From: an uncultured Actinomycetota bacterium
Lineage (GTDB): Bacteria > Actinomycetota > UBA4738 > HRBIN12
Assembly: GCA_963737525.1 (NCBI GenBank)
Contig: CAVTTD010000039.1
Location: 5,113-69,112 of the forward strand
Direction of reading: 5' to 3'
DNA length: 64,000 nt
How positions within the stretch are numbered: the first letter of the stretch is position 1; each line of letters starts with the position of its first letter. The notes under the pieces are model-generated. The model saw nothing but the letters and a program-made list of their open reading frames with translations. It ran no database searches and was not told the DNA's origin. The position numbers and the translations under genes were made by a program. Below are positions 7,555-55,010 of this stretch, one piece after another.

Positions 7555-7569
7555 GGCCGGCCGGATCCC

Positions 7570-8347
7570 TTACGCGAGGCCCAGGAACACGGGGACGTCG
7601 GCGAAGGAGGGCAGGACGTGATCGGGTCGGCCGGCCTCGCGATCCTCGTCGCCCGCTCGAAACTTCCCCGTGCGCACGAGGATCCCGGTCAGCCCCGATG
7701 CCTGGGCACCCTGGATGTCGTTGACGATGTCGTCTCCCACCATCGCCGACCGATCCGCGGTCACACCGAGCATCGCGAGGGCCGCGTCGAAGTACGCCTT
7801 CTCCGGTTTCCCGCAGATCGTCGCCTTCGTCTCCGCGGCTTCCTCGAGCCCGGCGATGTACGCACCCCCGTCCAACTCCCAGCCCTGGCTGGTCTTCCAG
7901 AAGAGGTTCCGGTGCATGCCGACGAGCGCGGCACCATCCATCAGGCGGCGGAAGATCTTGTTCATCGTCGGGTAGGTGAACTCGTCGCACGCGCCTCCGA
8001 TCACGACCACATCGGCGTCGTCGACGGCCGTGAGCTCGACGCCGGCGAGGTCCTCCGTGGCGTCTCCGTCGGAGAGCACGAAGACCTTCTTCCCGGGATG
8101 TTCCTTCCGGAGGTAGGCGGCCGTCGCGACGACGGCCGTCACGATCTCCTCGTCGCTGACGTTCGAACCCCGCCTCCCTGAGCGTGCCGGCGAGATCGGC
8201 TCGGGTCTTGGTCGTCGTGTTCGTGATCATGCGGAACGGCACGCCGGCCTCCCGCAGACGTCGCAACGCATCGACCGCTCCGGGCAGCGGTTCCCAGGAG
8301 ACCGCGAGCACGCCGTCGATGTCGAGCAACAATCCGTCGATCGCCAC
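7570..8347 (-). CDS. HAD-IIA family hydrolase (HDHD2/LHPP-like), frameshift near 8165
   Basis: LLDIDGVL, ITNTT, CGKPEKAYF, MVGDDIVNDIQGAQASGLTGILVRTGKF. Confidence 0.92.
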
Positions 8348-8363
8348 GATCAGGAGTGTGCCA

Positions 8364-9221
8364 TCACAGGCGGATCCCCAGCGAGCGCCGCGCGCGCTCG
8401 ATCCCGACATGGTCGGCGCGTCCTCGCTCCCGAAGTCGCCACTGTTGGTAAGGAGCGATGAAGCGGTACTTCGGCGGGAGGAGCGGACGCAGCGTCCGGA
8501 GCCCCGCGAGCGTCGCGCGGACGAGCGTGCGGCTTCCCGGCCCGGACGGGAAGCCGTACCCCTCTCGCACGGCCTCGGGAAGCGTCCCGATCGCGAGCCG
8601 GGCGACCGCTCTCAGGACCGGTCGCCACTGCGCGTCACGAGGCGGATCGAAGAAGAGCTCCGCCACTCGGCGCGCCGCTTCCGTGACGACGAGTTCTCCC
8701 GATCCAACCGTCTCGGCGACGTAGTCCGCGAGGGAGGGCACCGTCGCCGGGATCCTCTCCCGAGGGAGGCGCACCATCTCGGCCGCGAGCATCTGTTCCT
8801 CGTGGAAGCGCTGGCGGTCGGCGTCTGCGAGCGCCCCCACCGTCATCCGCTCGAAGAGCAGCGCACTGTCGACGAGGCACGTGTGCACCCAGAGCAGCAA
8901 CTCCGGATCGAGCGCGTCGTAGCGCCGCCCGGTCACGGGATCCACCCCGTTGATGCGCTCGTGCACCCCGTTGATGCGTTCGGCCGCGGCATGCGCCTCG
9001 GTCTTCGTCCCGAACGTGAGGGCGTATTGCAGCACGAGCGTTCGTTGAAGCCGTTTCCACGGGTTGCGCTCGTACATGCCGGTCTGGTTCGCGCCCGCGA
9101 CCACCAACGGATGGGCGGCCTGCATGAGCATCGCTCTCGCGCCTCCGAACAGCACCGTGACCTCTCGGTGCACCCGCCAGGAAACGCTCTCCGGTCCGAA
9201 GTACCCTTCGTCGCTCCGCAC
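8364..9221 (-). CDS. Oxygenase MpaB family / DUF2236 protein
   Basis: GYFGPESVSWRVHRE...GGARAMLMQAAHPLVVAG, RLQRT, INGVHERING, YDALDPELLLWVH. Confidence 0.9.
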   Translation of the reverse strand: MRSDEGYFGPESVSWRVHREVTVLFGGARAMLMQAAHPLVVAGANQTGMYERNPWKRLQRTLVLQYALTFGTKTEAHAAAERINGVHERINGVDPVTGRRYDALDPELLLWVHTCLVDSALLFERMTVGALADADRQRFHEEQMLAAEMVRLPRERIPATVPSLADYVAETVGSGELVVTEAARRVAELFFDPPRDAQWRPVLRAVARLAIGTLPEAVREGYGFPSGPGSRTLVRATLAGLRTLRPLLPPKYRFIAPYQQWRLRERGRADHVGIERARRSLGIRL

Positions 9222-9314
9222 ACGACAAGGGTATCGCCGCATCGACGCTGGACTCCCTTCGGGGGCCGTGGAACGATGCTGTCGGTTCAGCCGCCCGAGT
9301 CGGAGACTTCCCCA

Positions 9315-9985
9315 CGTGATGTTGGTCCTCATCGTGATCGGCTTGGCCGTCGGCGTTGGCTTCATCGCCGGTGGCAGCCTGCGACCGTTCGAGCGACTCA
9401 ACGTGCACTGGTGGGGTGTCGCCCTCGCCGGACTCGTTCTCCAAGGCGTCTCGCTCACGGGAGATATCGGACGATCAGCGGCCTTGGCCGTCCTCGTGGG
9501 CTCCTACGGACTCCTGCTCGCGTTCGCATGGGTGAACCGTCGGCTCCCGGCCTCGTGGCTCGTGATGGCCGGACTGGTCCTGAACATCCTCGTCATCGGG
9601 GTGAACGGTGGGATGCCGGTGAGCGCCAGCGCCCTCGACACGGCAGGTGCCGGGGCCGAGGAACTTCTCGGCGCGGGGACCGCGAAGCACCACCTCATGG
9701 GCCCCGCCGATTCCCTGACCCTCCTCGGCGATGTGATCGGGATCCCGCCGCCGGTCGGCGCCGTGATCTCGATCGGCGACGTGCTCCTCTACGCGGGCGT
9801 CGCGGATACTCGTCGTGATGATCATGCTCGGACGGTCGGGCGAGAATCGCCGGCCGCCGGCTCGGATCTTCCAGGGGTATCGGGGGAAGCATCTTCCGCC
9901 GGACCGTCACTTCTCCCGTCTCGCGGCTCGAGTGGTGTCGGTCCCGGGCGATCCCTCCCACCACCCGCCGGATCGATCGGAGTAG
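9315..9985 (+). CDS. DUF5317 family membrane protein, frameshift near 9805
   Basis: GGSLRPFERL, LNILVIGVNGGMPV, KHHL, LLGDVIGIP, VISIGDVLLYAG match my recollection of DUF5317. The second frame continues ILVVMIMLGR...YRGKHLPP to a TAG at 9983-9985. Confidence 0.8.
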
Positions 9986-11445
9986 GCCCGGGTCCTCCGC
10001 CGTCTCCGATCGACTCTGGCGGTGGCTCCGATTGGAGAAGGGACTTCGGGAACCTGACCGTGATCGTCGCGCCCTCACCGGGTGCGCTCTCGACCTCGAA
10101 GCGACCGCCACCGACCTGAGCGCGCTCACGCATCATCGCCATGCCGAAGTGACCTTCAGGGCCGGGGGCTTCCGTGTCGAAGCCAACCCCGTTGTCCTTC
10201 AAGATCAGCTCGATGTCGTCGTCTTCCTCGCGAACCGTGATCCACACATCTCTCGGCTGTGCGTGCTTCAGGGCGTTCATCACACCCTCGCGGGCGATGT
10301 GATACACGAGCAGCGCGATCGGAGCCGGGAGCTCGATGTCCTCCACGTCGCGATGGAAGCGGATCGAGGAATCGCGACCGACCTCCTCGGTGAAGGACTC
10401 GAGCGCTTCGGCAAGCCCCTTCGCTCCGAGCGGGGATCGGTGCAGGTCTCGGATGAGCGCGCGGATCCGGTCTGACGTGTCTTGCTTCGACTGACGGATC
10501 TTGTCGAGTTGCGCAGCGACGTCCTCCGTCTGACCCTTTTCGAGCAGCTTTCGGGCTACATCAACCTGGATGGAGAGCCGGAAGAGGACCTGGGCGAGGT
10601 CATCATGGAGATACCCGGCGATCTGGAGTCGTTCGTCGGCTCGTTCCTCGGCCATCGCGTTCGAAAGCGATCGAAGGACCTGCTCGCGATCCTGGAGCTC
10701 TTCGTGGGCCACTTCGAGCGCCTGCGATCGGAAGAACATCTGACGTGCAAATAGCAGGGGTGCAAGGATGGCAGGCAGCGCCCCGTATCCAACATCTTTG
10801 TATAGGAATCGCAAGACTCAAACCAACGAGGCCGAGCCCGAGGTAGCTCACGAGGAATTCGCTCAGGCGCCCGATCCGCAGCTCCCGCATCACCTGGCGG
10901 ATAGGCACCCCCGTTCGAAGACTCACGAAGATGGTTACGAGCGCGCTGTTCACGCCGTAGTCGACCAACGAGGCGGCGGCGGCCGCGATCAAGAGGATGA
11001 CTTGAGAATCGCCGGGCAGTGTCTATGCCGAACGGCGTCAATCGCATGGAAGAGGGCACTCGCTGCGAGTACCGACAAGAGCGACCTGACATCGATTGAA
11101 CAGGGCCCGGAGGCAGCGTTACTTCTCGTCGGAATTCCCTTGGATCCGACGCACCGACGAGAGCCACGGCGGCGGCGGCGACCGGCTCGTAAAGAAATGC
11201 CACGACCATCAGAAGAGGGAAGCCAACACTGATGGTCAGTCCCCGCCAAGCGGGAACAGGGAGCAGCTCCACCAGTCCGATGAGAGCGGCCCAGAAGACA
11301 AGCTCGCCCCAGTAGTCGTGGAATGCCGCAGGGTCACGGGCGACGAGGAGCGCCCCCCACGCAAGGTGGGAATGATCACGAGGAGCTCGAAGGCGACTAC
11401 CTTTCGCTGATCAACCTTGGCCGGATTCGCCCTCATGAACGTCAA
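9822..11445 (-). CDS. Membrane-sensor histidine kinase 1 (HisKA_3 + HATPase_c), about 4 frameshifts in the sensor domain
   Basis: H-box ERLQIAGYLHDDLAQ, N-box REGVMNALKHA, DNGVGF, GHFGMAMMRERA, SAPGEGAT. The multi-TM N-terminus is split over ORFs 11236..11445, 10556..11272, 10989..11249 and 10603..10992. Confidence 0.88.
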
Positions 11446-11498
11446 TCTTGTCGGTCAGAGCTCGAAGCGCAAGCAGCCCAAAAGCCGGTGCAAGGACC

Positions 11499-11533
11499 CC
11501 TACAGCATGTGTCGTACATGGCTCCTACAGCAT
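11499..11533. repeat. 10-bp direct repeat CCTACAGCAT x2 (11499-11508, 11524-11533) in the divergent intergenic region
   Basis: Exact repeat read from the sequence, 25-nt period. Confidence 0.7.
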
Positions 11534-11597
11534 CCTTCGTAGCTGCATCGGCGTCCTTGCCTATCCCCCGTTTGCCATCGATATTCACTTCCGGAGT

Positions 11598-11611
11598 CCC
11601 CCAAATGGGGG
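11598..11611. promoter_or_regulatory. Palindrome CCCCCA-AA-TGGGGG, putative regulator binding site
   Basis: Perfect 6-bp inverted repeat about 60 nt upstream of the small peptide gene. Function is inferred only. Confidence 0.35.
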
Positions 11612-11672
11612 GTTGGAATAGGTCAGAAGCGGGACTGCCTTGTTGGGCCCGTGACATGAGAGGGGGATCGGC

Positions 11673-11756
11673 ATGAAGGTCGTGCGACGGATTGCAATCG
11701 CGCTCGGCTCTCTGCTGGCTGTCGCTCTGGCTGGCGGCGCCCACTGGCGCGGCTAG
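11673..11756 (+). CDS. 27-aa small peptide precursor MKVVRRIAIALGSLLAVALAGGAHWRG
   Basis: Below the ORF-track cutoff. Purine-rich RBS GAGAGGGGG 6 nt before ATG, basic n-region, 14-aa hydrophobic core, polar tail, and a strong hairpin 27 nt after the stop. Confidence 0.8.
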   Translation: MKVVRRIAIALGSLLAVALAGGAHWRG

Positions 11757-11782
11757 ACAGACCGAACATCAGAGACTGAACC

Positions 11783-11809
11783 AAGGGGACCCTGAAGAAG
11801 GGTCCCCTT
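11783..11809. terminator. Bidirectional terminator-like hairpin between the peptide gene and kinase 2
   Basis: AAGGGGACCCT-GAAGA-AGGGTCCCCTT, a perfect 11-bp stem between convergent stops at 11756 and 11824. Confidence 0.8.
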
Positions 11810-11823
11810 CCATTTGGCGGAGT

Positions 11824-13232
11824 TCACGAATCCCTTGGGATGCTCGCGGCAACGGTAGTGCCCGACCCCAGTCTCGAGTCGACGAACATCGTCCCTCCGG
11901 CCGCTTCGAGCCTTTCCTTCATCATCTGCAGCCCGAAGTGTCTGTTGCCATCCACCCTGAACCAGTCGAACCCAGATCCATCATCAGTGACGCTGACGCG
12001 AACCATGGTTTCGTCTGCCCAGAGTCGGACAGCAATTCGTGAAGCTTGAGCGTGCTTCGAGGCGTTGTGGAGAGCCTCGCGGATGACCTGATAGGCGAGC
12101 AGCTGAGCAAGAGGGGAACTCTCAAACTCTTCTTCCTCGATGATCCACCGGGGGCGCCCCAGCGGCCGCCAGCTGATCGACCAGCATGCGAACAGTTGGG
12201 ACCAGCCCTGCAGCTCCAAGCGGAGATCGACGAAGATCGCCCAAGAGGTCCCGAATCGCCCGCTGCGCAGCGTCGGTCGCGAGGAGAAGCTCAGGGAGAT
12301 CATCGTCAAGCTCCAGCAGCCGTCCAGCCGCGAGGTCTTGCTTGAGAACCTGCCCCATGAGATGAACCTTGAATAGAGACGGAAGAACTTCATCATGTAG
12401 CTCACCGGCCAGGGCAAGGCGTTCGTCCTTCCGTTCGCGCGCCATCTCTCCAGCAGCACCACGTAGCGCCGACATCCTTTTGGCGGATGCGCTCGGTGGC
12501 GTACAGGACCTGCTGGGTCTGACGGAACATCTCCCGAGCGAGCACAAGCGGCGCGAGGAACAACAGCAGCGCCCAGATCCCACCCACCGCAACCGCAGCA
12601 GCAAGTGGCAGGGCAAGGAGGCCAAGAAGCAGGTAGCCAGCCAGGTAATGCGAGAGGCGATGCACCGAACATCCTCTTCAAGACGCCCCGGGCGTCGATC
12701 GGTCCTCGAACGAGACGGCGAAAGCCACAAGGATGAAATTGCTTCCGGCGTCAGCAAGAGAGCAGCTGCGCCAGGAAGAAGGACCCGGGCCAGTCGAGTA
12801 ATGGCTCCATCCATCACGTGGAAGAGCGCGGACCCCGCCATGACGCTTGCCGCCACTTGGCTCCGATTGAATATCGACTTCGCCAACGAAACGCTGCCCT
12901 TCAGTTCTCGTGGATCGAAGGAGCCAATGAAGGCGATAAGTGCCGCTTCGGTCGGAAGAAAGATCATTCCAGCCGCCAAGGTCACAGGAAAGGACATGCT
13001 GACGCTCACGGAACCCCACACGCGAACTGGAACAAGATCTACAGCCGCCACGGTGGCTGCCCACAATCCCAGTTGCAGGAGCTCGGCATGATTACCTGCC
13101 AGGCGAGAAGCCCCGGGGGCGGCAACTGATCGCTGTCAGGAGGCTGACAGTCCAGAGGAACGCCTTGGCCAATGGTGGCTCGTGAGTGCCGGCATCGAAG
13201 TTCCGCCTCTTGCGACCGACCGTGACCGACAT
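11824..13232 (-). CDS. Membrane-sensor histidine kinase 2 (HisKA_3 + HATPase_c), paralogue of kinase 1, several frameshifts
   Basis: RBS GGAGGAGGGG before ATG at 13232. Sensor SFDPRELKGSVSLAKSIFNRSQ, H-box ERLALAGELHDEVLP, REALHNASKHA, DDGSGF, HFGLQMMKERL, SRLGSGTT. Confidence 0.88.
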
Positions 13233-45476: not shown

Positions 45477-46080
45477 ATGGACAAGATCGGACCCAAGCAC
45501 CGCATGTGCAGACGTGTCGGCGCTCCGCTGTGCGGGCGCCCCAATTGTCCTGCCAACAAGCGGCCATACCCACCCGGCATGCACGGCCGCGGCCGCAAGC
45601 GGATCTCGGAGTATCAGACCCGGTTGGTGGAGAAGCAGAAGATGCGCGCGATCTACGCGGTCGGGCGAGCGACAGATGCGCAAGTACTACGAACGGGCGC
45701 ACCGGTCGATGGGTGTGACCGGCGAGGAGCTGCTCAAACAGCTGGAGACCCGGATCGACTCGGTGATCCTGCGTCTGGGGTTCGCCCTGACGATCCACCA
45801 GGCCCGCCAGCTCGTGTCCCACGGTCACGTGCTGATCGACGGCAAGCGGATCGACGTCCCCAGCGCCCAGGTGAAGCCGGGTCAGGAGATCAGCCTCACC
45901 GAGAAGGCGCGGAACTTCATCTCGGTGCGCGAGGCGATCCAGATCACGCCCGAGCCGCCCGCCTATCTCTATCGCAACAAGGACGAGATCAAGGGCGCGT
46001 TCACGCGGATCCCGGAACGGGACGAGATCCCGCTCCCGGTGACCCTCGAGGAACGCCTCGTCGTCGAGTTCTACTCCTAG
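45477..46080 (+). CDS. rpsD: 30S ribosomal protein S4, frameshift near 45665
   Basis: KRPYPPGMHGRGRK, SEYQTRLVEKQK, LETRIDSVILRLGFA, ARQLVSHGH, VDVPS-like IDVPSAQVKPG, VVEFYS. Confidence 0.95.
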
Positions 46081-46086
46081 GGACGC

Positions 46087-46818
46087 ATGGTCGCCCCTTC
46101 CGGCGACGCTTCCACCCTCGACCGGGACGTCCGGCTCGCCGTGTATCGGACGTTCGTCGAGGACGGGCGCCCTCCGACCGCTCCCGAGATGGCCGTTGCG
46201 CTCGGCGTCGAGACGCCGGACATGGAGGCCTCGATCCGGCGGCTCGCGGAGGACCACGTCCTCGTGCTCGCACCGGGAACGCCCTACGTCTGGATGGCGA
46301 ACCCGTTCTCCGCGATCCCGACGCCCTTCGAGGTCGAGGTCGGCGACCGCCGGTACTTCGGCAACTGCATCTGGGATGCCCTCGGGATCCCCGCATGCCT
46401 GCACGCCGACGCGCGCATCCGAACGTCCTGCCCGGATTGCTCCGAACCTCTTCCGATCGACATCCGGGACGGGGAGCTCGACGCTCCCGCCGGTGCCGTG
46501 ATCCATTTCGCCGTTCCCGCCGCGCACTGGTGGGACGACATCGGCTCCACCTGAGCGAGCATGCTCCTCTTCCGGTCGGAAGAGCACGTGAGGCGATGGG
46601 CGGAGAACCGACGGTCCGCGATCGGAGCGACCTTCACCCCTCGACAGGGATGGCGGCTCGCGACCGCCTGGTTCGAAGATCGACTCTCGCCGGACTGGCG
46701 GCGGAAGACGCCCGAGGAAGCGCACGCGATCTTCACGGACATCGGACTCACCGGTCCCTTCTGGGACCTGACGTCGAAGGTTTCCTCGTCCGACGGGGTG
46801 GATACACCAGGGGCATGA
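46087..46818 (+). CDS. MerB (organomercurial lyase)-like protein, predicted selenoprotein (UGA at 46552-46554), 243 aa
   Basis: ORFs 46087..46554 and 46561..46818 are in the same frame and separated only by TGA-GCG-AGC. N-terminal HTH, MANPFSAIPTPF, FGNCIWDALGI, RTSCPDC, WWDDIGST-U-ASMLLFRSEEHV. A SECIS-like hairpin follows the UGA. Confidence 0.85.
46555..46587 (+). promoter_or_regulatory. Bacterial SECIS element (predicted)
   Basis: CTCTTCC-GGTC-GGAAGAG stem-loop (46567-46584), extendable with a bulge. The GGUC loop is at +23..+26 counting the U of UGA as +1, against +22..+25 in E. coli fdhF. Confidence 0.8.
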
Positions 46819-46952
46819 CCGACATCCTCATGCACCTCGCCCAACGTCTGCGCGGAGACGACGGCTTCGTGATCGGCCGGGTCGCCCTGGTCGTGCTGAT
46901 CGTCGCGATCGTCATCGTGGCCGCGCTCGTGGCGTTGATCGTTCCGAACTAG
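46815..46952 (+). CDS. 45-aa single-TM protein with an Flp/class III signal-like N-terminus
   Basis: ATGA overlap with the upstream stop; MTDILMHLAQRLRGDDG-FVIGRVALVVLIVAIVIVAALVALIVPN. Confidence 0.6.
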   Translation: MTDILMHLAQRLRGDDGFVIGRVALVVLIVAIVIVAALVALIVPN

Positions 46953-47564
46953 CGATCGCCCACCGGCTCCAGCGCCGCGCGGACGAACGCGACGACCTCT
47001 CTCTCCCGTCGCCGAAGTGACGCGCGGCTCTTGTCGGCGCCCACGACGGCGTTCAGGACGCTCGCCTCGGTGAGGGATCCCGACGACCGCCGTGTACAGG
47101 GTGAACAGAAGCATCGTGGGGTCTTGCTTCCGAACCTGACCGTCGTCCATCCCGGACCGGAGGAAGTCGATCGCGCGACGCCTGAGCGGATCGAGCACAT
47201 CGGCGAAGCGCTCGAACGCGAGCGGGCCGAGTCGGCCGGCCTCTCTGATGAACATCGGGAACTCCGGCCACTCGGCGGCGAGGTCGAACACGGAGTGGAT
47301 CACGGCTTCCGCGCGCTCCCAGTACCCCTCCTTGCCCTCGAGTGCACGCGCGATCTCCTCCGCGAGCCGGACCCCCGCCGCCTGCAGGCACGCTTCCAGC
47401 AGCGCGTCCTTGTTCTGGAAGTAGTACAGGAGGGTCTGCTTGCGGACGCCGACGGCGCCGGCGATGTCGTCGAGGCTCGCGCCTCCGTAGCCCTCACGAC
47501 CGAACTGCCGGATCGCCTCCTCGATGAGGGTCGAACGCCGTTCCTCGCCGCCGGTCCTCGGCAT
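46949..47564 (-). CDS. TetR/AcrR family regulator, frameshift near 47075
   Basis: LIEEAIRQFGREGYGGASLDDIAGAVGVRKQTLLYYFQNKDALL. Confidence 0.92.
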
Positions 47565-47570
47565 CGGACG

Positions 47571-48452
47571 TCACTCCCAGACCTTCGCGGGACCCTTGCG
47601 ACCGACGGGGCGCGAGCCCTCCCATCGCCGCAGCCAATCGGGTCCCTGCGGACCGACGAGCGAGGGAGTCTCGCCCCGGTTCGCTCGATGGAGCGCCTCC
47701 CACCAGGTCGTGCGTTCCTCGTGGAAGAGCTGGGTCACCGCCTGGGTCATCCGCCGTGAGAGGTCCTGATGCGTCTCCCCTTCCTGTGGCCAGAACGGCT
47801 CGCCGTAGCGGACCGTGACGGGTGGTCGTCCGGCACGCGGCCAGAACCGACCCTTCGGCATCGCCTGGAACGCCCCCACGATCGCGATCGGCGCGAGGCC
47901 GGCGCCGGTCTCCAACGCGAGTCGGGCGGCGCCGTGCCGGAACCGCTGGAGGTGACCGTCGGCCGAGCGCGTGCCCTCGGGGAAGACGACGATGCTCCAC
48001 CCCTCCGAGAGGAGCTCGCGCGCCTTGTCGACGGCGCCCTTCGCGCCGCGCGCGCGGTCGATCGGGAACGCGCCGTAGACGAGCGCCGTGAACGCCTGGC
48101 GCCACCACACGTCGAAGAAGTAGTCCCGCGCGGCGCCGACCGCGGTCTTCGCCTGCCAGCGATCCGGGAGCGAGCACATGATCAGGGTGGCGTCGAGGTG
48201 GCTCGAGTGGTTCGAATAGAAGATCAGCGGTGGGTCGACACCCTCGAGACCGTCTCGGCCGAACACCCGTAGCGTGAGCTCGTTCCGAACGATCGGATGC
48301 ATCGCTCCCTTGAGGAGGACCTGCCTCGCCGCCACCCCGGCGTCCGTCCGCGCCCAGTCCGACGGGAACACCCGGTCGACCTTCGGCTCCGCGTGCTCCT
48401 CCGCCGACCGCGGAACCAGCGGCCGCCGGCCCCAGCGGAACCCTTCCGCCAT
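47571..48452 (-). CDS. Lysophospholipid acyltransferase (PlsC family)
   Basis: NHSSHLD, AARDYFF, FPIDR, VFPEGTRS, FRHGAARLA. Confidence 0.92.
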   Translation of the reverse strand: MAEGFRWGRRPLVPRSAEEHAEPKVDRVFPSDWARTDAGVAARQVLLKGAMHPIVRNELTLRVFGRDGLEGVDPPLIFYSNHSSHLDATLIMCSLPDRWQAKTAVGAARDYFFDVWWRQAFTALVYGAFPIDRARGAKGAVDKARELLSEGWSIVVFPEGTRSADGHLQRFRHGAARLALETGAGLAPIAIVGAFQAMPKGRFWPRAGRPPVTVRYGEPFWPQEGETHQDLSRRMTQAVTQLFHEERTTWWEALHRANRGETPSLVGPQGPDWLRRWEGSRPVGRKGPAKVWE

Positions 48453-48497
48453 CGCCTTGAGCTCGTCCTTGACGTTCTTCGGCGCCCCATCAGCGCC

Positions 48498-50087
48498 TCA
48501 CACCACGTCCGCGATCATGATCGGGGGAGCGTGGAAGTACGTGATCGACGGGGAGGACCCGACGGTGTCCTTCGCCATCTCCAGCGCGTCGCGGAACGAG
48601 CCGGCCGCGCGATAGCCGAGGCGCGCGACGGACTTGGGCTCTCCGCCGACGAAGATCACGTCGCCCGCGTGATCGCGCCCGTGCGCGCCCCAGTACCACA
48701 TGTAGAACGGATGGACGCCGTGGTACGCGTGGGACGTCCGGTAGAGATGCGTGTACCAGGGGTCGGTCGCGTAGCGCTCCTCGTACTTCGACTCGATCGT
48801 CGCGGGATCGGTCGTCTCGGCGAGCACCTCCTCGAAGAAGTCGATGTAGGAGGGGTGATGGATCTGGTGGAACTCCCACGGGACCGGGTGGTACATGATC
48901 ACGACGCCGCCCTGCTTCACGAGCGGCATGTTCCGGTACATGTTGAAGAGGTAGCCGAGCCCGAGGCAGTGCACGAGGATCGGGTTGAGGATCGAGTTGA
49001 CGTTGTACGGCCCGAGGTACGGCAGGCCGAGCACGAGGACGTCGGATTGCCCGCGGACCTCCACGAGCTGCTGCCGGTGGAGGTTCTCCAGCGTTCGCTC
49101 GTGGACGGCCTCGACCTCACCGGCGTTGATGCCCGTGATCTTGTAGGGCGCCTCGACCCGGCGGTAGAACTCCCGCCGCACCCGTGGCGGCGCCATCTGG
49201 TTCGCCTTCCGGGCCGCCATCATGAGCCCCTGGTCGTACGCGGACCACTCCCACTCCCGCTTGTTCAGGAAGCCGAGGTTCTTCGGGAACGTCTCGGCGT
49301 TCACCGTGGTCTCGATCTGGAAGACCTTCGGACCGTCGGCGGCGACGAGCCGGCCCATCCGGGTGGCGGAGTCGGCGATCGCGCTGTGGCCGGGACGGGT
49401 GTCCATGTAGGAGCGCGAGTGCATCATCGTCTCGACGTTGTGGTGGTGCTTCAGGGAGCGGTAGCCCGCGAGCCCGATCGCGACCGACTTGTGGCCGCCG
49501 TCCATGGCCACGAGGTTCACGTTGACGTAGACGAGGAGGTCGGACTCCGCGGCGCGCTTCGAGATCTCCACGACCTCGTGCTCGTCCGTCGTGCCGATGA
49601 GCGCGAGCGCGTCCTTGTCCTCGCCGTCGAAGTTGTAGAGGTCCTTGGGCCAGAACGAACGGAAGACCCGCTCGCCGACCATCCGCCGGATCTCGTCGGC
49701 GGTCATGCGACGGTGCAGGGCGGTGGCGACGACGATCTGCACGTCCTCGACCCCTTCGCGCGCCGCCAGTTCGATCACCTGTTCGAGGATCCGCTGGCGG
49801 ATGTCGGGCCGCGTCATCGGCGGCAACGGGATCGAGATGTCGTCCACGGCGATCGTGAGCTTCATCCCGGCCTTCAGGAGGTCCGGGAGCGGCTTCGAGT
49901 CCCCGGTCGGGTGGAGCAGGGCGTGGCGGATCGCCGCGTTGACGTCCCTGATCCCCGGGAGCGGATCGGGTGGATACACGACCCGGGTGCCGAGGGGGAA
50001 CTTCTGCAGACGGAATCCCTCGCCCTCGTGGACGAGGAGCGGGGGCGTTCGCTCGTCCACCTCCAAGACGAATCCGGGTCTGGGCAT
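48498..50087 (-). CDS. Lactate racemase (LarA/DUF2088) domain protein
   Basis: IRHALLHP, LTIAVDDISIP, VATALHRRMT, AESDLLVYVNVN, DGGHKS. Confidence 0.8.
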   Translation of the reverse strand: MPRPGFVLEVDERTPPLLVHEGEGFRLQKFPLGTRVVYPPDPLPGIRDVNAAIRHALLHPTGDSKPLPDLLKAGMKLTIAVDDISIPLPPMTRPDIRQRILEQVIELAAREGVEDVQIVVATALHRRMTADEIRRMVGERVFRSFWPKDLYNFDGEDKDALALIGTTDEHEVVEISKRAAESDLLVYVNVNLVAMDGGHKSVAIGLAGYRSLKHHHNVETMMHSRSYMDTRPGHSAIADSATRMGRLVAADGPKVFQIETTVNAETFPKNLGFLNKREWEWSAYDQGLMMAARKANQMAPPRVRREFYRRVEAPYKITGINAGEVEAVHERTLENLHRQQLVEVRGQSDVLVLGLPYLGPYNVNSILNPILVHCLGLGYLFNMYRNMPLVKQGGVVIMYHPVPWEFHQIHHPSYIDFFEEVLAETTDPATIESKYEERYATDPWYTHLYRTSHAYHGVHPFYMWYWGAHGRDHAGDVIFVGGEPKSVARLGYRAAGSFRDALEMAKDTVGSSPSITYFHAPPIMIADVV

Positions 50088-50103
50088 CTGTCGTCTCTCC
50101 TCG

Positions 50104-51312
50104 TCAGTCCTGTGGCGCGAACGCCACCTTGAAGGTGCCGAGCTTGCCGGCGGCCATCGCGTGATCGAGCGCCTCACGCCAGCGGTCGAGCGGGTAGGTC
50201 GCGCCCACCAGCTCCTCGAGCATGGGCAGGTTCGAGGCGAGCTCCATCGCCATCTCGAAGGTGGGGCGCGTGACGCCCTTCCCGAGGTCCTCCACGCCCG
50301 ACGTGTACGCACCCGCGAGCTCGAGCTCGCGGAACCACAACGGGGTGAGGTCGGCGCCGCTCCCGGGGATGCCCGAGACCACGACACGCCCGCCCGCCTT
50401 CGTCGTCCGGAGCGCCAGGTCGAGGGCGCTGCTCGACCCCGTGCATTCGATCGCCACGTCGACGCCCCCGAGGAGGAAGTCCATCCCGCGCTCGGGCGTG
50501 AGCTTCACCGCGTGATCGGTCCGCCGAACCGCCTTCACGGCGTGTTCCGGCCGGACGACGTCGTCGGCGCCGGCCATCGTCGCGGCGGCGCGCTGACGCT
50601 GATGCTTCGCCGCCACCACGACGTGATCGGCCTTCGTCAGCGCCTTGATCGCGATCAGCGTGAGGATGCCCACCGTGCCGGCGCCGACGACGTGGACGGT
50701 TCCCCCGGCGGGGATCTCCGCGCGGAACGTCGCATGGATCGCGCACGCCAAGGGCTCGATGAGCACGGCGGTCTGGTCGCTCATCCCGTCGGGAACCGGC
50801 CAGAGCTGCGAGCGGTGGGCGAGCATCAGCCGGCTCCATCCGCCTCCGGTCTCGCTGCAGTAGCCGGTCTGGAGTCCCGGCTTGAGATGACCGACCGTGA
50901 CCCGGTCGCAGCGGCCGACCTGTCCCGAAGCGCAGTTCTCGCACGGCGGGTCCTCTCCTCGTGCCGCGCATCCCAGGACGCTCGCGATCACGACGCGCTG
51001 CCCGGCCACGAGGTCGCCGACGTCGTCGAGGAGCTCGCCGACGACCTCGTGGCCGGGCACGAACGGCAGCGACACGAGCGGAGAGAAGTAGAGGGATGAC
51101 CTCCCGGCGATCGTGGAGAGGTCGCTCCCGCAGATGCCGGAGAGCCGGGGCTTGACGCGCGCCCACCCCTCGCGCTTCGGCTCCGGATCCTTCTGGGTCA
51201 CGAGCCGGAGCGGCGCCAAGCCGGCGGTCACCAAGCCGGGCGCCTTCGACCCGAGCGTCCGGGTGCCGAGGTACTTCGGCGCGGAACGGTAGAACTCGAG
51301 CGCCAGCGCCAT
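50104..51312 (-). CDS. Zinc-binding alcohol dehydrogenase (MDR family)
   Basis: GICGSD, VPGHEVVG, structural Zn Cys cluster C...CENCASGQVGRC, IEPLACAIH, VVGAGTVG. Confidence 0.92.
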   Translation of the reverse strand: MALALEFYRSAPKYLGTRTLGSKAPGLVTAGLAPLRLVTQKDPEPKREGWARVKPRLSGICGSDLSTIAGRSSLYFSPLVSLPFVPGHEVVGELLDDVGDLVAGQRVVIASVLGCAARGEDPPCENCASGQVGRCDRVTVGHLKPGLQTGYCSETGGGWSRLMLAHRSQLWPVPDGMSDQTAVLIEPLACAIHATFRAEIPAGGTVHVVGAGTVGILTLIAIKALTKADHVVVAAKHQRQRAAATMAGADDVVRPEHAVKAVRRTDHAVKLTPERGMDFLLGGVDVAIECTGSSSALDLALRTTKAGGRVVVSGIPGSGADLTPLWFRELELAGAYTSGVEDLGKGVTRPTFEMAMELASNLPMLEELVGATYPLDRWREALDHAMAAGKLGTFKVAFAPQD

Positions 51313-51317
51313 GAGCC

Positions 51318-53625
51318 CTACCTCCTCGCCGGCTTCGGGAAGCGGACCCGCGGCATCCCCTTCGACATGGCCCATTCCTCGATCGGCCAGCGGCGGCGGC
51401 GCGCGAACCGGTAGAGGTGGGAATCCGGTGACACGGCCACCGGGTTCCCCACCGCGCGGAGCAGCGGCAGGTCGGAGTAGGAGTCCGCGTAGGCGTAGGA
51501 CAGCTTCAGGTCGACGCCCTCCGTCGAGGCGTAGCGGCGGAGCCACGCCGCTCGCGCCTCGCCGACGAGCGGCGGACTGGACATGAACCCCGTGTACCTG
51601 CCCTTGTCGTCCACCTGGAGGTCCGCCCCGATCACCACGTCGAACAGGGGATCGAGCGGCCGGAGGAACGCGTTGGCGGCGGCGGTGAGCAGCAGCGTCC
51701 GGTGTCCGGCCGCTCGATGCTCGCGGATCCGACGGATCGCTCCCGGGCTGGCCTTCTCGAGCATGAACTCCCCGACGTGGCGATCGATCAGTCGGTCGAG
51801 ACCCTCCACGGAGGCGCCCTCGTACCGGCGGAAGAACGTCCGCAGGAAGTCACCCCGATCCCGTCGGTCGATCGCCAGGTATCGCGGGATCCGGCCGAAC
51901 ACGCCGACCAGCTCACCCGGCCACTCGTCGGGCTCGAGGTCCGCCATCCTCGCCCACACGTAGGACTCGACGACGTTCGAGGAGATGATCGTCCCCTCCA
52001 TGTCGAACACGGCCAGGACCGGTTCTTCGCGCTCCCGGATCTTGACCGTGGGACGGACCCGATCCTTCCGAGCCAGCTCGCGGAGCGACTGCGTCACCGC
52101 GGGCGAGTGGACATCCTGCAGGTAGTACTTCCAGTCGATCGCGGCCGCGTCGAAGGGGAACCTGGCTCGGTCTTCCGCGGTCAGGCTGCCGGTAGAGGGC
52201 CATCGCCACGTCGTCGGTGTAGATCACCTCGGCTTCCGTGTAGGCGCCGTAGAGATCGGAGTAGCGCTTCACGAAGTCGACCCGGGCCTTGTCGCGATCC
52301 ACTCGACCCACCGCGTCGCGCATCGCCTTGGACTTCGGGAGGTGCGTGACGACCTTCTCGGCGATGTCGGTGAGCTGCTCGGCTCGACGGAGCATCTTCT
52401 CGACCGTGACGTTGCCGGGGAAGGTCCACTCGGGAACCTTGTGCTCGCCCCGGCCCCGCTCGGGGAGCGGGTGCGCCTCGAAATACTCTCGGACGAGCGT
52501 GTACAGCTGGTGGAACTGCAGCGGGTTCCGGTCGCCCGAACAGACGTGGTAGTGAGCGGGCTGGCCGGGGGGTGGCGGGGTCGCCGCCACGGCGAGGATC
52601 GCGTTCACGACGAAGTCCACCGGGATGATGTCCACGATCCCTTCCGGGATGCCGGGGAACTCGGGGATCTGTCCCAGGCCGTAGGACCGGATGATCGGGT
52701 CGGCCATCTTGAATCCGTCGATCCATCCCGGCGAAGGGTGGAGCAACGCGGACTCGATGATGGACGGTCGAACGATCGACAAGGGCAGGCTCTCCTCGGC
52801 GGCGAGCTCCTCCACGGCGCGCTCGCCCATCGCCTTGGTGAACGTGTAGACGTCCGGCCAGCCGAGCGACCGGGCGCGCTGACGCCCGTATTCGACGAGC
52901 CGCTTGGTCATCCAGTCCTTGCGACGCTGCTCGGCATCCTCGGCGACGGTCGTGGGACCGGCCCGAGAGTGCTCCTCGGCGGCGTCCGCGAGGAAGCGCT
53001 CGAGGAGCTCGGGTTTCCTGGAGGACGCCTCGACGTCGCCACGCGACCGGAGCGCGAGGTCGGCTTCGAGTCTCCAATCGACGCGGTGGTCCAGGGTGCG
53101 CTCCGGGATCACGCCTTTCTGCACACCCGCGACGTAGGCGGTGGAGACGTGGACGAGCGCGGGTCGCGAGCCGCCGGCGAGGACGCCTCGGTAGAGGTTC
53201 ATCGCGCCGAGCAGGTTCGTCTGGAAGCCCTCGTCGATCGGTGGGTCGAAGGCGACGGTCGCCGCCGAGTGGATCGTGACGTCGATGTCGCCCGGCAGGT
53301 CGGGCTGCCCGCGCGAGAAGTCGCCGTCGATGACCTCGACCCGCTCGTCCAGGAGTCGCAGGAGCGCATCATCCGACCCCAGGGTGGCGCGCAGCCCATC
53401 GAAGGAAGGCTTCCGCGTCAGGTAGTGGACCCGCTCGACGGAGGAAGCACCCGCCTGCGAACGGACCAGCAACAGGATGCGCGTCTCCGGCAGATCGGCG
53501 AGGAGGCGCTCGAGGACGACCTGGCCCAGGAACCCGGTGACGCCCGTGAGGAAGATGCGCTTGCCGGCCAGGCGCTCGACGATGGATCGGTCTCCGGCCC
53601 TGGGCCGCTTCCGCTTCTCTACCAT
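51318..53625 (-). CDS. Fatty acyl-CoA reductase (NAD_binding_4 + Sterile) fused to a HAD-IB phosphatase, frameshift near 52190
   Basis: IFLTGVTGFLG, HSAATVAFD, HVSTAYV, YTFTKAMGE, IVRPSII, GWIDG, VDIIPVDFVVN; then FDMEGTII, LLTAA, AYADSYSDLPLLRAVGNPVAVSPD. Confidence 0.9.
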
Positions 53626-53630
53626 CCGGC

Positions 53631-53662
53631 AGATTATCCGCCCTCTACCGGTCGGTAGACAA
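53631..53662 (-). promoter_or_regulatory. Leaderless-type promoter overlapped by the palindrome TCTACCG-GT-CGGTAGA (53644-53659)
   Basis: Minus strand TTGTCT-N18-GATAAT-7 nt-ATG(53625). A perfect 7-bp inverted repeat covers the -35 and spacer. Confidence 0.6.
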
Positions 53663-53727: not shown

Positions 53728-55010
53728 GTGATCGTGTCCCTTCGCTCGAAGATGCTTGCGATGTCGACCATCCCGGTGGTCGTGCTCATCTTCGCCGTCA
53801 TGTATTCGGTCTCCGCGCAACGGACCGCTTCACGAACCAACGCCGAAGTGGACAGGACGAACGCGGTCAGGCAATTGCTGGCCGAGATGGAGAACGATCT
53901 GGGGGTTGCCGAGTCGGGCGTCCGCGGATTCCTGCTGACCGACCGAGCCGGGATGAAAGCCGAGTACGAGAGCGCCGTCACGGACCTTCGACATGACCTC
54001 GCGAGGCTCGATCTCCGGGTCGCCGAAAAGCTCCAGCGCACACGGCTCGATCGGCTCAACGAGCTGGTCGACGAACGGGTGGCGACCTTCCGGGCCAGCC
54101 TTCGGGCCGGGAGCGTACGGAACGCCGGAGGGTCAGGCTCGGCTCGTGACGTTGCTCCTTCACGGTCAGACGATCACCGACGCCCTGCGCGGACTGACCG
54201 AACAGATGCGGGCGACCGCCGATGAGCTGGCTGCCCAAAGGGTCTTGGCGCGCGATACCGCCTTCGAGCGTTCCTACTTCGTGGAGGTGCTCGCGATGCC
54301 GGCGGCCGTGGCCTCGGCCATGATCCTCATGGTCGGCTTCACGGCGAGCATCGTGAGGCGGGTCCACAAGATGCGCAACAACGCGAGAAGGCTGGACCAA
54401 GGGAGGCCGCTCGAGGACCCGGACACCTCCCAGGACGAGCTCGGCTCGCTGTCTCGAGCCCTGGTCCGAGCCGGATCCCACGTCTCGGAGTTGCAGGAGG
54501 AGCTGCGCCAGCTCGCCACGGTGGACGAGCTCACCGGTCTCGCCAACCGCCGTGGCTTCTTCGCGTTGGGTGAACACGAGCTCCTGGTCGCCGCCCGGAC
54601 CCGGTCGGCGATCGCGCTGCTCTTCGTCGATGTCGACGGACTGAAGAAGGTCAACGACGAGCTCGGCCACGCCATGGGCGACCAATTGCTGAAGGAGGCG
54701 GCCGACGTGATCCGCGAAACGATCCGCGTGTCGGACCTCGCCGGGCGCATCGGCGGAGATGAGTTCTGCGTCCTCCTGCTCGGCGACCCGGATCTCGACC
54801 CCGCGCGTGCGGTGCAGCGGCTCCGGCAGACGGCCGACTCGCACAACGCCGATCCCGATCGGCGAGTTCGACGTGTCGCTCTCGATCGGCGTTTCCGCCC
54901 TTCCGCCGGGTCGCTCTGTCACTCTCGAGGAACTCATCGACGCCGCTGACGAAGGCATGTACGAGGACAAGCGCGGGAAGCGCGATCCGCAGGCGGTCTC
55001 GTCGATCTGA
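53728..55010 (+). CDS. CHASE3/HAMP-GGDEF diguanylate cyclase, frameshifts near 54115, 54170 and 54860
   Basis: AESGVRGFLLT (CHASE3), DELGSL, DELTGLANRR, FVDVDGLKKVNDELGHAMGD, RIGGDEF, ADEGMYEDK. Confidence 0.9.

What the first reader, a model, noticed from the sequence alone, without database searches (positions are those of the whole stretch)
46949..53625. Candidate ether/alkyl-lipid biosynthesis operon in an actinobacterium
Seen: five tightly packed co-oriented genes encoding a fatty acyl reductase-HAD fusion, Zn-ADH, LarA-domain protein, PlsC acyltransferase and TetR. Established: myxobacterial ElbD combines reductase and acyltransferase domains for ether lipids, with a HAD hydrolase in the cluster. 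My recollection that the cluster also has a LarA/DUF2088-domain gene needs checking. Inference: a fatty alcohol or aldehyde is joined to a glycerol/DHAP-phosphate backbone, then reduced and dephosphorylated, giving alkylglycerol lipids or wax-like products by an uncharacterised route.
Basis: partly seen in the sequence, partly recalled or inferred. Interest (0 to 1): 0.7.

Follow-up and report, generated by a model that had tools for sequence, protein, structure and literature searches.

The report
Actinobacterial elb-type ether-lipid operon
These five genes are a repressor-controlled operon, conserved across many Actinomycetota, that matches the Myxococcus "elb" ether-lipid genes module by module; its lactate-racemase-like enzyme is the counterpart of the unexplained ElbC protein, so it probably makes ether-linked glycerol lipids by a step nobody has yet explained.

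Summary
On the minus strand, 46949-53625, lie five tightly spaced genes: a FAR-HAD fusion, a Zn-dehydrogenase, a LarA homolog, a PlsC acyltransferase and a TetR.

FAR-HAD and TetR are each broken by a single-base indel. The essential rpsD next door is broken too, and 32 of 33 orthologous loci are intact. I therefore read the breaks as assembly errors.

MXAN_1529 (ElbC) is a LarA homolog (Desguin 2020, group 15), 47% identical to the window protein (E 5e-125). FAR and PlsC are reciprocal best hits of the ElbD reductase and acyltransferase domains, and the HAD domain's best M. xanthus hit is ElbB. The ACS/ACP modules and the ElbA/E SDRs are missing; a polyol-dehydrogenase-like Zn-ADH stands in their place.

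Gene order is conserved in 18 of 18 loci of the order. The core genes are present in 15 of 15 informative loci from eight further families, and about 24% of sampled Actinomycetota carry the LarA type.

The LarA homolog keeps the nickel-pincer (NPN) cofactor anchors but lacks the second catalytic His and the carboxylate binders. The cofactor genes larBCE are missing from this genome (an empty site) and from about half of its genus, yet the LarA gene stays under strong purifying selection.

The product is unproven. Ether lipids are the best reading, at about 0.55.

The parts
53633..53662 (-). Only sigma-70-like promoter in the 7.2 kb region. The -35 is TTGTCT (53662-53657), the spacer is 18 nt and the -10 is GATAAT (53638-53633). 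The -10 ends 7 nt before the ATG at 53625, so the mRNA is probably leaderless or nearly so.
   Evidence: 1 site found against 0.3 expected from shuffles. It is a consensus match only and is not proof of function.
53644..53659 (.). Candidate TetR operator 1, the perfect palindrome TCTACCG-AC-CGGTAGA. It lies between the -35 and -10 hexamers and overlaps the -35.
   Evidence: It occurs once in the 64 kb window. The motif TCTACC-N4-GGTAGA recurs upstream of FAR-HAD in all seven other same-genus-level loci checked (L001, L106-L111) and in most loci of other families.
53618..53633 (.). Candidate operator 2, the degenerate copy TCTGCCGGATGGTAGA. It overlaps the end of the -10 hexamer and the FAR-HAD start codon.
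   Evidence: Read from the sequence printed. Paired sites 24-26 nt apart are also seen in L098, L100 and L002.
51318..53625 (-). FAR-HAD fusion gene. It combines a fatty acyl-CoA/ACP reductase (NAD_binding_4 plus Sterile; GxxGxxG and YxxxK motifs present) with a C-terminal HAD-IB phosphatase domain (motif I FDMEGT). It is the homolog of the ElbD N-terminal reductase domain plus ElbB. In this assembly it is broken by one extra base near 52171-52188.
   Evidence: The intact 772-aa ortholog is in L001.
50104..51312 (-). Zn-dependent medium-chain dehydrogenase, 402 aa, intact. Its nearest solved relatives are polyol/ketose (secondary alcohol) dehydrogenases.
   Evidence: Nearest structures are L-idonate 5-DH, sorbitol DH, butanediol DH and ketose reductase, with E 1e-18 to 1e-20.
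48498..50087 (-). LarA-superfamily protein of the LarAH14 type, 529 aa, intact. It is the counterpart of ElbC (MXAN_1529) and the best-conserved gene of the operon.
   Evidence: NF052592 scores 878 bits against a cut-off of 740. It is 47% identical to ElbC and 64% to Frankia LarAH14. The fold model has pLDDT 80.7, and its best PDB match is the single-His LarA-like enzyme 9q3k, TM 0.73/0.80. Median identity across loci is 69.5%, against 52-62% for the other genes.
47571..48452 (-). PlsC-family acyltransferase with the HX4D motif NHSSHLD and the FPEGTRS motif. It is the homolog of the ElbD C-terminal acyltransferase domain. By homology the true start may lie about 30 nt upstream, near 48485.
46949..47564 (-). 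TetR-family regulator, 204 aa in the orthologs. It is the last gene of the operon and is broken here by one extra G near 47079-47080.
   Evidence: (weak FasR/FadR/BetI-like hits).

Best explanation
This is a TetR-repressed, probably leaderless, five-gene operon. It is the actinobacterial, 'unbundled' counterpart of the Myxococcus xanthus elb ether-lipid operon, and it most likely builds 1-O-alkyl-glycerol (ether) lipids.

Shown here:
- Four of its modules are homologs of ElbD-reductase, ElbB, ElbC and ElbD-acyltransferase. The reductase and acyltransferase are reciprocal best hits. The HAD domain's best M. xanthus hit is ElbB, in a forward search only. The LarA gene was matched by direct pairwise comparison.
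- The operon is conserved in order and under purifying selection across many Actinomycetota.

Inferred, by analogy with the FAR1/GNPAT/AGPS/alkyl-DHAP-reductase/phosphohydrolase route of animals:
- The FAR domain reduces an acyl thioester to a fatty aldehyde or alcohol.
- The PlsC-type enzyme acylates DHAP or glycerol-3-phosphate.
- The LarA homolog carries out the ether-forming or ether-enabling step. It is the only module without an assigned role, and its family stands in a pathway that in M. xanthus works largely without AGPS.
- The polyol-dehydrogenase-like Zn-ADH reduces the 2-keto group of the backbone, or else the aldehyde.
- The fused HAD domain removes the phosphate, giving alkyl(acyl)glycerol.
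- The TetR, binding TCTACC-N4-GGTAGA sites over the promoter, probably releases the operon in response to an acyl ligand.

The two frameshifts in this copy are most likely assembly errors.
For: - Domain content.
- ElbC is a LarA homolog: Desguin 2020 Dataset S2 lists MXAN_1529 in group 15, and L016 shows the elbA-E layout.
- Pairwise homology and best hits in both directions.
- Conserved order FAR-HAD > ADH > LarAH > PlsC > TetR in 18 of 18 loci of the order.
- FAR, HAD, ADH and LarAH are present in all 15 informative loci from eight other families.
- 48 of 201 sampled Actinomycetota genomes carry a LarAH above the family cut-off.
- Desguin 2020 Table S1 independently lists COG0204, COG0560, COG1063 and COG3320 next to group 14 LarAHs.
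- elbD mutants of M. xanthus lose ether lipids, while the AGPS mutant loses few (PMC9131029).
- The ADH is closest to ketose/polyol dehydrogenases.
- No full-length AGPS ortholog was found in the genus. Hits cover only generic FAD-domain proteins.
- LarAH dN/dS is 0.04-0.07.
- A single promoter with a conserved palindrome.
Against: - There are no lipid data for any carrier of this operon.
- Searches of the held library found no report of ether lipids in Frankia or Acidimicrobiia, although cultured carriers exist: Acidimicrobium ferrooxidans, Ilumatobacter, Kribbella and Frankia.
- ElbC itself was never tested genetically. Only elbA, B, D and E insertions were made, and the elbB effect was ascribed to polarity.
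- ElbD homologs do not guarantee ether lipids: Pontiella has them and no ether lipids were detected (PMC11868695).
- The ACS and ACP modules and the ElbA/E SDRs are absent.
- Frankia LarAH14 supplied with NPN showed no activity, though it was assayed only on seven reactions of 2-hydroxy acids.
- If the LarA homolog needs NPN, the absence of larBCE from this genome and from half of the genus is hard to reconcile with function.
Confidence: 0.55

Rival explanations
1. The operon makes fatty alcohols or aldehydes and esterifies them, or makes related neutral lipids such as wax-ester-like or acyl-DHAP-route di- and triacylglycerols, without any ether bond. On this reading the LarA homolog is an accessory isomerase or redox enzyme acting on a hydroxylated lipid or backbone intermediate.
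For: - FAR domains by themselves give alcohols or aldehydes, and PlsC enzymes form esters.
- No ether lipid has been reported from cultured carriers in the searched library.
- ElbD homologs occur in organisms where no ether lipids were detected.
Against: - Known bacterial wax synthases belong to the WS/DGAT family, not to PlsC (my own knowledge).
- This reading does not explain the strict linkage of four modules with the very genes whose disruption removes ether lipids in M. xanthus.
- It does not explain why the LarA homolog is the most conserved member of the operon.
Confidence: 0.2
2. The LarA homolog is a true NPN-dependent isomerase of a small phosphorylated polyol or hydroxy compound, for example inverting or shifting the C2 centre of a glycerol-phosphate derivative. 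The operon then tailors the backbone stereochemistry or head group of ordinary acyl lipids rather than forming ethers.
For: - The NPN anchors D72, H108, K184 and H200 are invariant.
- The nearest solved relatives are single-His LarA-like enzymes linked to triose- and sugar-phosphate genes.
- NCBIfam names the family 'NPN-dependent hydroxyacid isomerase'.
Against: - Inversion needs two bases, and H174 is replaced by Asn here.
- The carboxylate binders R75, Q295 and K298 are lost.
- larBCE is absent from this genome and from 13 of 24 congeners while the gene stays under purifying selection.
- This reading leaves the FAR domain without a role.
Confidence: 0.15
3. In this particular genome the operon is decaying. 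The two frameshifts are real, so FAR-HAD and TetR are pseudogenes.
For: Two single-base insertions relative to orthologs. The cofactor island larEBC has also been lost.
Against: - Essential rpsD and the neighbouring GGDEF gene are broken in the same way. That points to indel errors in the assembly.
- Apart from the indels, the broken genes are 89-92% identical in protein to intact orthologs, with no further stops.
Confidence: 0.07

Closest known systems
Myxococcus xanthus elbA-E ether-lipid operon (MXAN_1527-1531; Lorenzen et al. 2014 as reviewed in PMC9131029)
   Same: - Reductase (FAR plus Sterile), PlsC-type acyltransferase, HAD-IB hydrolase and LarA-type (ElbC) modules are all present.
- The reductase and acyltransferase are mutual best hits, and the HAD domain's best M. 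xanthus hit is ElbB.
- The acyltransferase motif NHSSHLD is identical in both.
- The LarA active-site signature is the same in ElbC and the window protein.
   Different: - There is no AMP-binding (ACS) or ACP module, so the acyl donor must come ready-activated.
- The reductase is fused to the HAD domain instead of to ACS-ACP-AT.
- The acyltransferase is a free-standing protein.
- The two extended SDRs, ElbA and ElbE, are replaced by one Zn-dependent MDR dehydrogenase.
- A TetR is attached.
- The product is unverified.
LarA homolog groups 14/15/16 (Desguin et al. 2020, PMC7583248; NCBIfam NF052592); Frankia LarAH14 (Franean1_4168)
   Same: - 64% identical to Frankia LarAH14 and above the family cut-off.
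- The same gene neighbours are tabulated for group 14.
- The same signature applies: D72, H108, K184 and H200 kept; R75, H174, Q295 and K298 lost.
   Different: Nothing differs at family level. The family's substrate is unknown. LarAH14 was inactive in the seven racemase/epimerase assays on 2-hydroxy acids. No paper in the searched library links it to ether lipids.
Animal/peroxisomal ether-lipid route: FAR1, GNPAT, AGPS, alkyl-DHAP reductase and phosphohydrolase. Also the minor M. xanthus AGPS operon MXAN_1674-1676.
   Same: Its set of activities maps one-to-one onto the five catalytic modules here if the LarA homolog takes the AGPS role. The M. xanthus AGPS operon (AGPS, FAR-GNPAT fusion, SDR) was read in L132.
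   Different: There is no AGPS ortholog in the genus. Only the FAD-domain part of AGPS matches generic oxidases there. The window FAR is much closer to ElbD than to the FAR of MXAN_1675, 166 against 47 bits. The fold of the candidate ether-forming enzyme is unrelated to AGPS.
Single-histidine LarA-like enzymes LarA_Sp and LarA_Bw (PDB 9q3k, 9q3j, 9q2u; bioRxiv 10.1101/2025.08.19.671153)
   Same: - They are the best matches by sequence (E 1e-24) and by fold (TM 0.73/0.80).
- Asn stands at the position of the second catalytic His.
- They are suspected to bind phosphorylated, non-hydroxy-acid ligands.
   Different: - Only about 20% identical.
- Those enzymes keep a Lys at the R75 position, where this family has Ile, Leu or Val.
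- Their gene context is glycolytic rather than lipid.

Membership tests
elb-type ether-lipid gene cluster | ElbD-type acyl reductase (FAR plus Sterile) module | tested here: met
   29% identity, E 5e-49 over ElbD residues 12-545. It is the best hit in the M. xanthus genome, 166 against 47 bits. In reverse, the reductase part of ElbD hits only the cluster gene in G014 and G002.
elb-type ether-lipid gene cluster | ElbD-type PlsC acyltransferase module | tested here: met
   38% identity, E 2e-26. It is the best of 10 PlsC-like hits in M. xanthus, 85 against 61 bits. The reverse search confirms it.
elb-type ether-lipid gene cluster | ElbB-type HAD hydrolase | tested here: met
   29% identity, E 3e-27. 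It is only narrowly the best M. xanthus hit, 77 against 73 bits, so orthology is less secure. The reverse search was not done.
elb-type ether-lipid gene cluster | ElbC (LarA/DUF2088) gene | tested here: met
   47% identity, E 5e-125 to MXAN_1529. The same NCBIfam model applies and the active-site signature is the same.
elb-type ether-lipid gene cluster | ACS (AMP-binding) and ACP modules of ElbD | tested here: not met
   No ElbD-ACS or ElbD-ACP match in any of the 20 phylum-level loci searched. None of the five window genes carries these domains. In G014 and G002 the ACS part of ElbD hits only unlinked genes.
elb-type ether-lipid gene cluster | ElbA/ElbE extended SDRs | tested here: not met
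   No ElbA or ElbE match in the loci. A Zn-dependent MDR dehydrogenase occupies the operon instead.
elb-type ether-lipid gene cluster | Operon-dependent alkyl ether lipids | not testable with these tools
   Needs lipid analysis. No report was found for cultured carriers.
LarA (lactate racemase) superfamily / NF052592 LarAH14-16 | Profile score above the curated cut-off, and LarA fold | tested here: met
   878.5 bits against 740. The AlphaFold model (pLDDT 80.7, pTM 0.84) has 19 PDB matches at E <= 0.001, all of them LarA-family entries.
LarA (lactate racemase) superfamily / NF052592 LarAH14-16 | NPN-binding residues: D72, the K184 tether and the H200 nickel ligand | tested here: met
   All three are conserved in 16 of 16 aligned sequences. 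The GG.KS lysine motif is present in 34 of 34 loci.
LarA (lactate racemase) superfamily / NF052592 LarAH14-16 | Two catalytic histidines (H108 and H174), as needed for racemisation | tested here: not met
   H108 is kept. H174 aligns with Asn in my alignment and with a gap in Desguin's.
LarA (lactate racemase) superfamily / NF052592 LarAH14-16 | 2-hydroxy-acid carboxylate binders R75, Q295 and K298 | tested here: not met
   R75 is Ile, Leu or Val; Q295 is Ser; K298 is Asn.
LarA (lactate racemase) superfamily / NF052592 LarAH14-16 | Cofactor biosynthesis genes larB, larC and larE in the same genome | tested here: not met
   - No hit in the own assembly.
- There is an empty site at the syntenic position on contig C28.
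- The genes are absent from 13 of 24 congeners, six of them at least 90% complete.
- They are present in most other families of the order. LarC is present in four myxobacteria.
PlsC/LPLAT acyltransferases (PF01553) | HX4D catalytic motif and the FPEGTRS motif | tested here: met
   NHSSHLD and FPEGTRS are read in the translation. H..H.D is present in all 30 loci that have the adjacent gene.
HAD-IB phosphatases (TIGR01490) | Motif I DxDG(T), plus motifs II-IV | tested here: inconclusive
   The profile score is just at the cut-off, 98.4 against 98.3. Motif I is FDMEGT (DxE) in this order but DxD in some other families. The motif III Lys is Arg here, and motif IV DSxSD is present. Phosphatase activity is plausible but not assured.

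The most novel reading that the evidence does not exclude
The ElbC/LarAH14 family is the missing ether-bond-forming (or ether-enabling) enzyme of the AGPS-independent aerobic bacterial pathway. It would be a LarA-fold protein acting on a glycerol-phosphate or DHAP lipid intermediate rather than on a 2-hydroxy acid.

There is a further twist. In at least part of the Actinomycetota it would work without self-made nickel-pincer cofactor. That means it either uses another cofactor, scavenges NPN, or has become NPN-independent while keeping the Lys and His anchors.
Probability: 0.3. Interest if true: 0.85.

Novelty: new variant of a known kind. Interest (0 to 1): 0.62.

Why it matters
- How the ElbD pathway makes the alkyl ether bond has been open since 2014. 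What the orphan LarA groups 14 and 15 do has been open since 2020. The two literatures hold the same protein family, yet I found no paper in the searched library that connects them.
- The actinobacterial operon is a simpler system to test: separate small genes, no megasynthase, and cultured carriers.
- If it does make ether lipids, roughly a quarter of Actinomycetota genomes (48 of 201 sampled) become candidate sources of the non-isoprenoid alkyl glycerol ethers used as environmental biomarkers.
- The LarA superfamily would gain its first reaction outside 2-hydroxy-acid racemisation and epimerisation.
- The patchy presence of larBCE next to a strongly constrained LarA homolog is itself a puzzle for the view that these proteins are strictly NPN enzymes.

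Tried and rejected
- Literature linking LarA/NPN/DUF2088 with ether lipids or ElbC: none found. Ether lipids in Acidimicrobiia or Frankia: nothing relevant.
- The sponge-symbiont elb preprint does not mention ElbC, LarA or Actinobacteria as carriers. A Black Sea study notes ElbD homologs in nine Actinobacteriota (Humimicrobiia) MAGs but does not describe this operon.
- Treating absence of larBCE from the own MAG as meaningful on its own was rejected at first, because the MAG is only 58.7% complete. It was accepted only after the empty site on C28 was found.
- AGPS absence: the test is weak. Generic FAD oxidases match the FAD domain, and one relative (G029) has a longer AGPS-like match with an internal TAG.
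- The DxE variant of HAD motif I looked special but is lineage-specific, since other families have DxD. I do not build on it.
- The below-cut-off LarA paralogs in families f23, f30 and f31 lack the operon and were set aside as a different, group-16-like branch.
- The whole-library HMMER job, which could have looked for LarA fusions, was not run because its top 150 hits would all be close orthologs.

Full report
**1. What is there**

The window has about 68% G+C, so long spurious ORFs abound. Third-position G+C content and homology single out five co-oriented genes on the minus strand:

| Gene | Coordinates | Evidence |
|---|---|---|
| FAR-HAD | 53625-51318 | NAD_binding_4 E 1.6e-50; weak Sterile hit; HAD PF12710 E 2e-30; TIGR01490 at the cut-off |
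| Zn-dependent MDR dehydrogenase | 51312-50104 | ADH_N plus ADH_zinc_N |
| LarA-superfamily protein | 50087-48498 | Lar_N E 8e-38; NF052592 'LarAH14/15/16' 878 bits against 740 |
| PlsC acyltransferase | about 48452-47571 | PF01553 E 2e-23 |
| TetR | 47564-46949 | TetR_N E 6.5e-13 |

Gaps between the genes are 5 to a few tens of bases.

**2. The frameshifts**

Against the 86%-identical metagenome locus L001, FAR-HAD switches frame near 52171-52188 and TetR near 47079-47080. Each is one extra base.

Within the same 10 kb, ribosomal protein S4 (45477-46077) is also split and the GGDEF gene (53734-55007) is split twice. FAR..HAD is a single open frame in 32 of 33 orthologous loci. A broken essential gene argues for indel errors in the assembly rather than decay.

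**3. The operon is conserved**

- Close relatives (L001, L002) carry intact genes of 772, 402, 529, 304 and 204 aa in the same order.
- In 16 further genomes of the same order, spanning seven families, the order FAR-HAD > ADH > LarAH > PlsC > TetR is identical. Together with L001 and L002 that makes 18 of 18.
- In 16 loci from eight further families of the phylum, FAR, HAD, ADH and LarAH are present wherever the contig reaches (15 of 15). PlsC is adjacent in 12; the four loci of family f19 lack it. A TetR sits downstream or divergently upstream in eight.
- A LarAH above the curated cut-off occurs in 20 of 21 high-quality genomes of the order and in 48 of 201 sampled Actinomycetota.
- The LarA homolog is the best-conserved member, with a median of 69.5% identity against 52-62% for the others. 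Within the genus its dN/dS is 0.04-0.07.
- This neighbourhood was already tabulated, without interpretation, for LarAH group 14 by Desguin et al. 2020. Their Table S1 lists COG0204, COG0560 and COG1063 at 88% and COG3320 at 50%.

**4. Regulation**

The only promoter-like site in the 7.2 kb region lies just upstream of FAR-HAD. It has -35 TTGTCT and -10 GATAAT, and the -10 ends 7 nt before the ATG.

The perfect palindrome TCTACCGACCGGTAGA (53644-53659) lies between the two hexamers and overlaps the -35. It occurs only once in the window. A degenerate second copy overlaps the start codon. The motif TCTACC-N4-GGTAGA recurs upstream of FAR-HAD in most orthologous loci, including those of distant families. 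This is the expected layout of a TetR-repressed operon. The ligand is unknown; weak profile similarity to FasR and FadR suggests an acyl compound.

**5. Homology to the elb operon**

It does.

- Desguin's Dataset S2 lists MXAN_1529 as LarAH group 15.
- In the M. xanthus locus L016 the genes read: SDR (elbA), HAD (elbB), Lar_N (elbC, 536 aa), FAR-Sterile-AMP-binding-PP-Acyltransferase (elbD, 1474 aa), SDR (elbE).
- The ether-lipid literature calls elbC 'unknown function' (PMC9131029).

Pairwise comparisons:

| Window module | elb partner | Identity, E-value |
|---|---|---|
| LarAH | ElbC | 47%, 5e-125 |
| FAR | ElbD 12-545 | 29%, 5e-49 |
| HAD | ElbB | 29%, 3e-27 |
| PlsC | ElbD 1269-1420 | 38%, 2e-26, same NHSSHLD motif |

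In the whole M. xanthus genome these partners are the best hits. FAR scores 166 bits against 47 for the FAR of the AGPS operon. HAD scores 77 against 73, which is marginal. PlsC scores 85 against 61. In reverse, the reductase and acyltransferase parts of ElbD hit only the cluster genes in two relatives, while its ACS part hits unlinked genes.

The ACS and ACP modules and ElbA/E have no counterpart in the actinobacterial loci. The Zn-dehydrogenase, whose nearest solved relatives are ketose/polyol dehydrogenases, is a non-homologous replacement or an added function.

**6. The LarA homolog**

Aligned with L. plantarum LarA, both the actinobacterial proteins and ElbC show the following:

- Kept: D72, the catalytic H108, the cofactor-tethering K184 and the nickel ligand H200.
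- Changed: Ile, Leu or Val for R75; Asn for H174; Ser for Q295; Asn for K298.

This agrees with Desguin's table. The lysine motif is present in 34 of 34 loci.

The predicted structure (pLDDT 80.7) matches only LarA-family entries. The best match is to the single-histidine LarA-like enzymes 9q3k and 9q3j, with TM 0.73/0.80. Their authors suspect a phosphorylated, non-hydroxy-acid substrate.

Frankia LarAH14, supplied with cofactor, was inactive in the seven racemase/epimerase assays on 2-hydroxy acids. So the protein looks like a cofactor-binding hydride-transfer enzyme that is not a 2-hydroxy-acid racemase.

**7. The cofactor genes (the new, unexplained point)**

- In the genus, larE, larB and larC form one small island. 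All three are present in 11 of 24 genomes and absent together in 13. Six of those 13 are 90-95% complete.
- Carriers and non-carriers are interleaved by LarAH divergence. dN/dS is equally low in pairs where both genomes lack the island.
- In the window's own genome, contig C28 has the two flanking genes only 64 nt apart. These are a 6PGD-like gene and an ArsP-type permease with a heavy-metal-binding domain.
- In congener G002 the same flanks enclose about 4.6 kb holding RibD_C-like, unknown, ECF-sigma, larE, larB and larC genes.
- G000 therefore has an empty site there. No lar gene is found elsewhere in the assembly, which is only 58.7% complete.
- Where present in the genus, LarC matches only positions 1-234 of the 375-position profile. 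The exception is one extra full-length locus in G021.
- Other families of the order mostly have full larBCE, sometimes within 16-31 kb of the operon. Four myxobacteria have LarC.
- So a strict need for self-made NPN is doubtful for this genus. Possible explanations are another cofactor, scavenging, or a non-catalytic role. Caveats: most of these genomes are MAGs, and I could verify the empty site only in the own genome.

**8. Mechanism**

In M. xanthus the elb route is the main source of alkyl ethers and the AGPS homolog contributes little. Some elb-encoded protein must therefore form the ether bond, and ElbC is the only one without an assigned activity.

The genus here has no full-length AGPS ortholog. 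Only the FAD domain of AGPS matches generic oxidases. I therefore propose, as inference:

1. FAR gives a fatty aldehyde or alcohol.
2. PlsC acylates DHAP or G3P.
3. LarAH exchanges or converts the acyl to an alkyl linkage, using hydride chemistry at C2 of the backbone.
4. The polyol-dehydrogenase-like ADH reduces the 2-keto group, or else the aldehyde.
5. HAD dephosphorylates.

None of these steps is shown.

**9. Novelty and standing**

The operon's neighbourhood and ElbC's family membership both sit in published supplementary tables. However, no paper in the searched library connects LarA/NPN with ether lipids or with ElbC, and none describes this actinobacterial operon.

Notes of this scan show that other agents reached the same reading for the same operon in at least 46 other genomes. 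Those are unchecked AI notes, not independent evidence. I saw them after forming my own reading.

- The reciprocal tests.
- The two-level synteny survey.
- The operator.
- The evidence that the breaks are assembly errors.
- The larBCE empty site and patchiness, which cut against 'certainly nickel-dependent'.

**10. Verdict**

The product is unproven. I class it as a new variant of a known kind, with interest 0.62.

Noticed in passing
window 45477-46077 (+) and 53734-55007 (+): Ribosomal protein S4 (rpsD) is split by one frameshift, and the divergently transcribed GGDEF/CHASE3-type gene by two. These are further signs of single-base indel errors throughout this assembly.
   Followed up: partly
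own genome contig C28:1-1441 (outside the window); compare L133 (G002:C3) 6486-12436: An empty site. A 6PGD-like gene and an ArsP-type permease with a heavy-metal-binding domain lie 64 nt apart here. In a congener the same flanks enclose about 4.6 kb with RibD_C-like, unknown, ECF-sigma, larE, larB and larC genes.
   Followed up: yes
same-genus genomes, e.g. L133 10418-11146 (G002): LarC in this genus matches only positions 1-234 of the 375-position Ni_insertion profile, in some genomes with an internal TGA or a frameshift. No C-terminal part was found in any frame. Only G021 has an extra full-length larE-larC-larB locus. The cofactor pathway may be decaying in the genus.
   Followed up: partly
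L002 8094-8695: In one relative a MazE/RHH antitoxin-like gene pair on the opposite strand is inserted between FAR-HAD and the dehydrogenase, splitting the otherwise tight operon.
   Followed up: no
L121, L122, L126, L127 (family f19, several single-contig genomes): These loci keep FAR-HAD, ADH and LarAH but have no adjacent PlsC. In three of them 0.7-2.5 kb of other sequence separates ADH from LarAH.
   Followed up: no
FAR-HAD orthologs; window about 52010-51990: HAD motif I is FDMEGT (Asp-x-Glu) throughout this order but Asp-x-Asp in some other families and in ElbB. The motif III Lys is Arg here. It is unclear whether phosphatase activity is retained.
   Followed up: partly
G029:C41:19123-20793: One relative in the order has a long AGPS-like match covering query residues 29-613 at 31% identity, with one internal TAG. 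All other relatives match only the FAD domain.
   Followed up: no
window 46087-46818 (+): A MerB-like gene lies directly downstream of the TetR. Another agent of this scan reads its in-frame TGA as selenocysteine. In my tblastn only the first 157 residues aligned.
   Followed up: no
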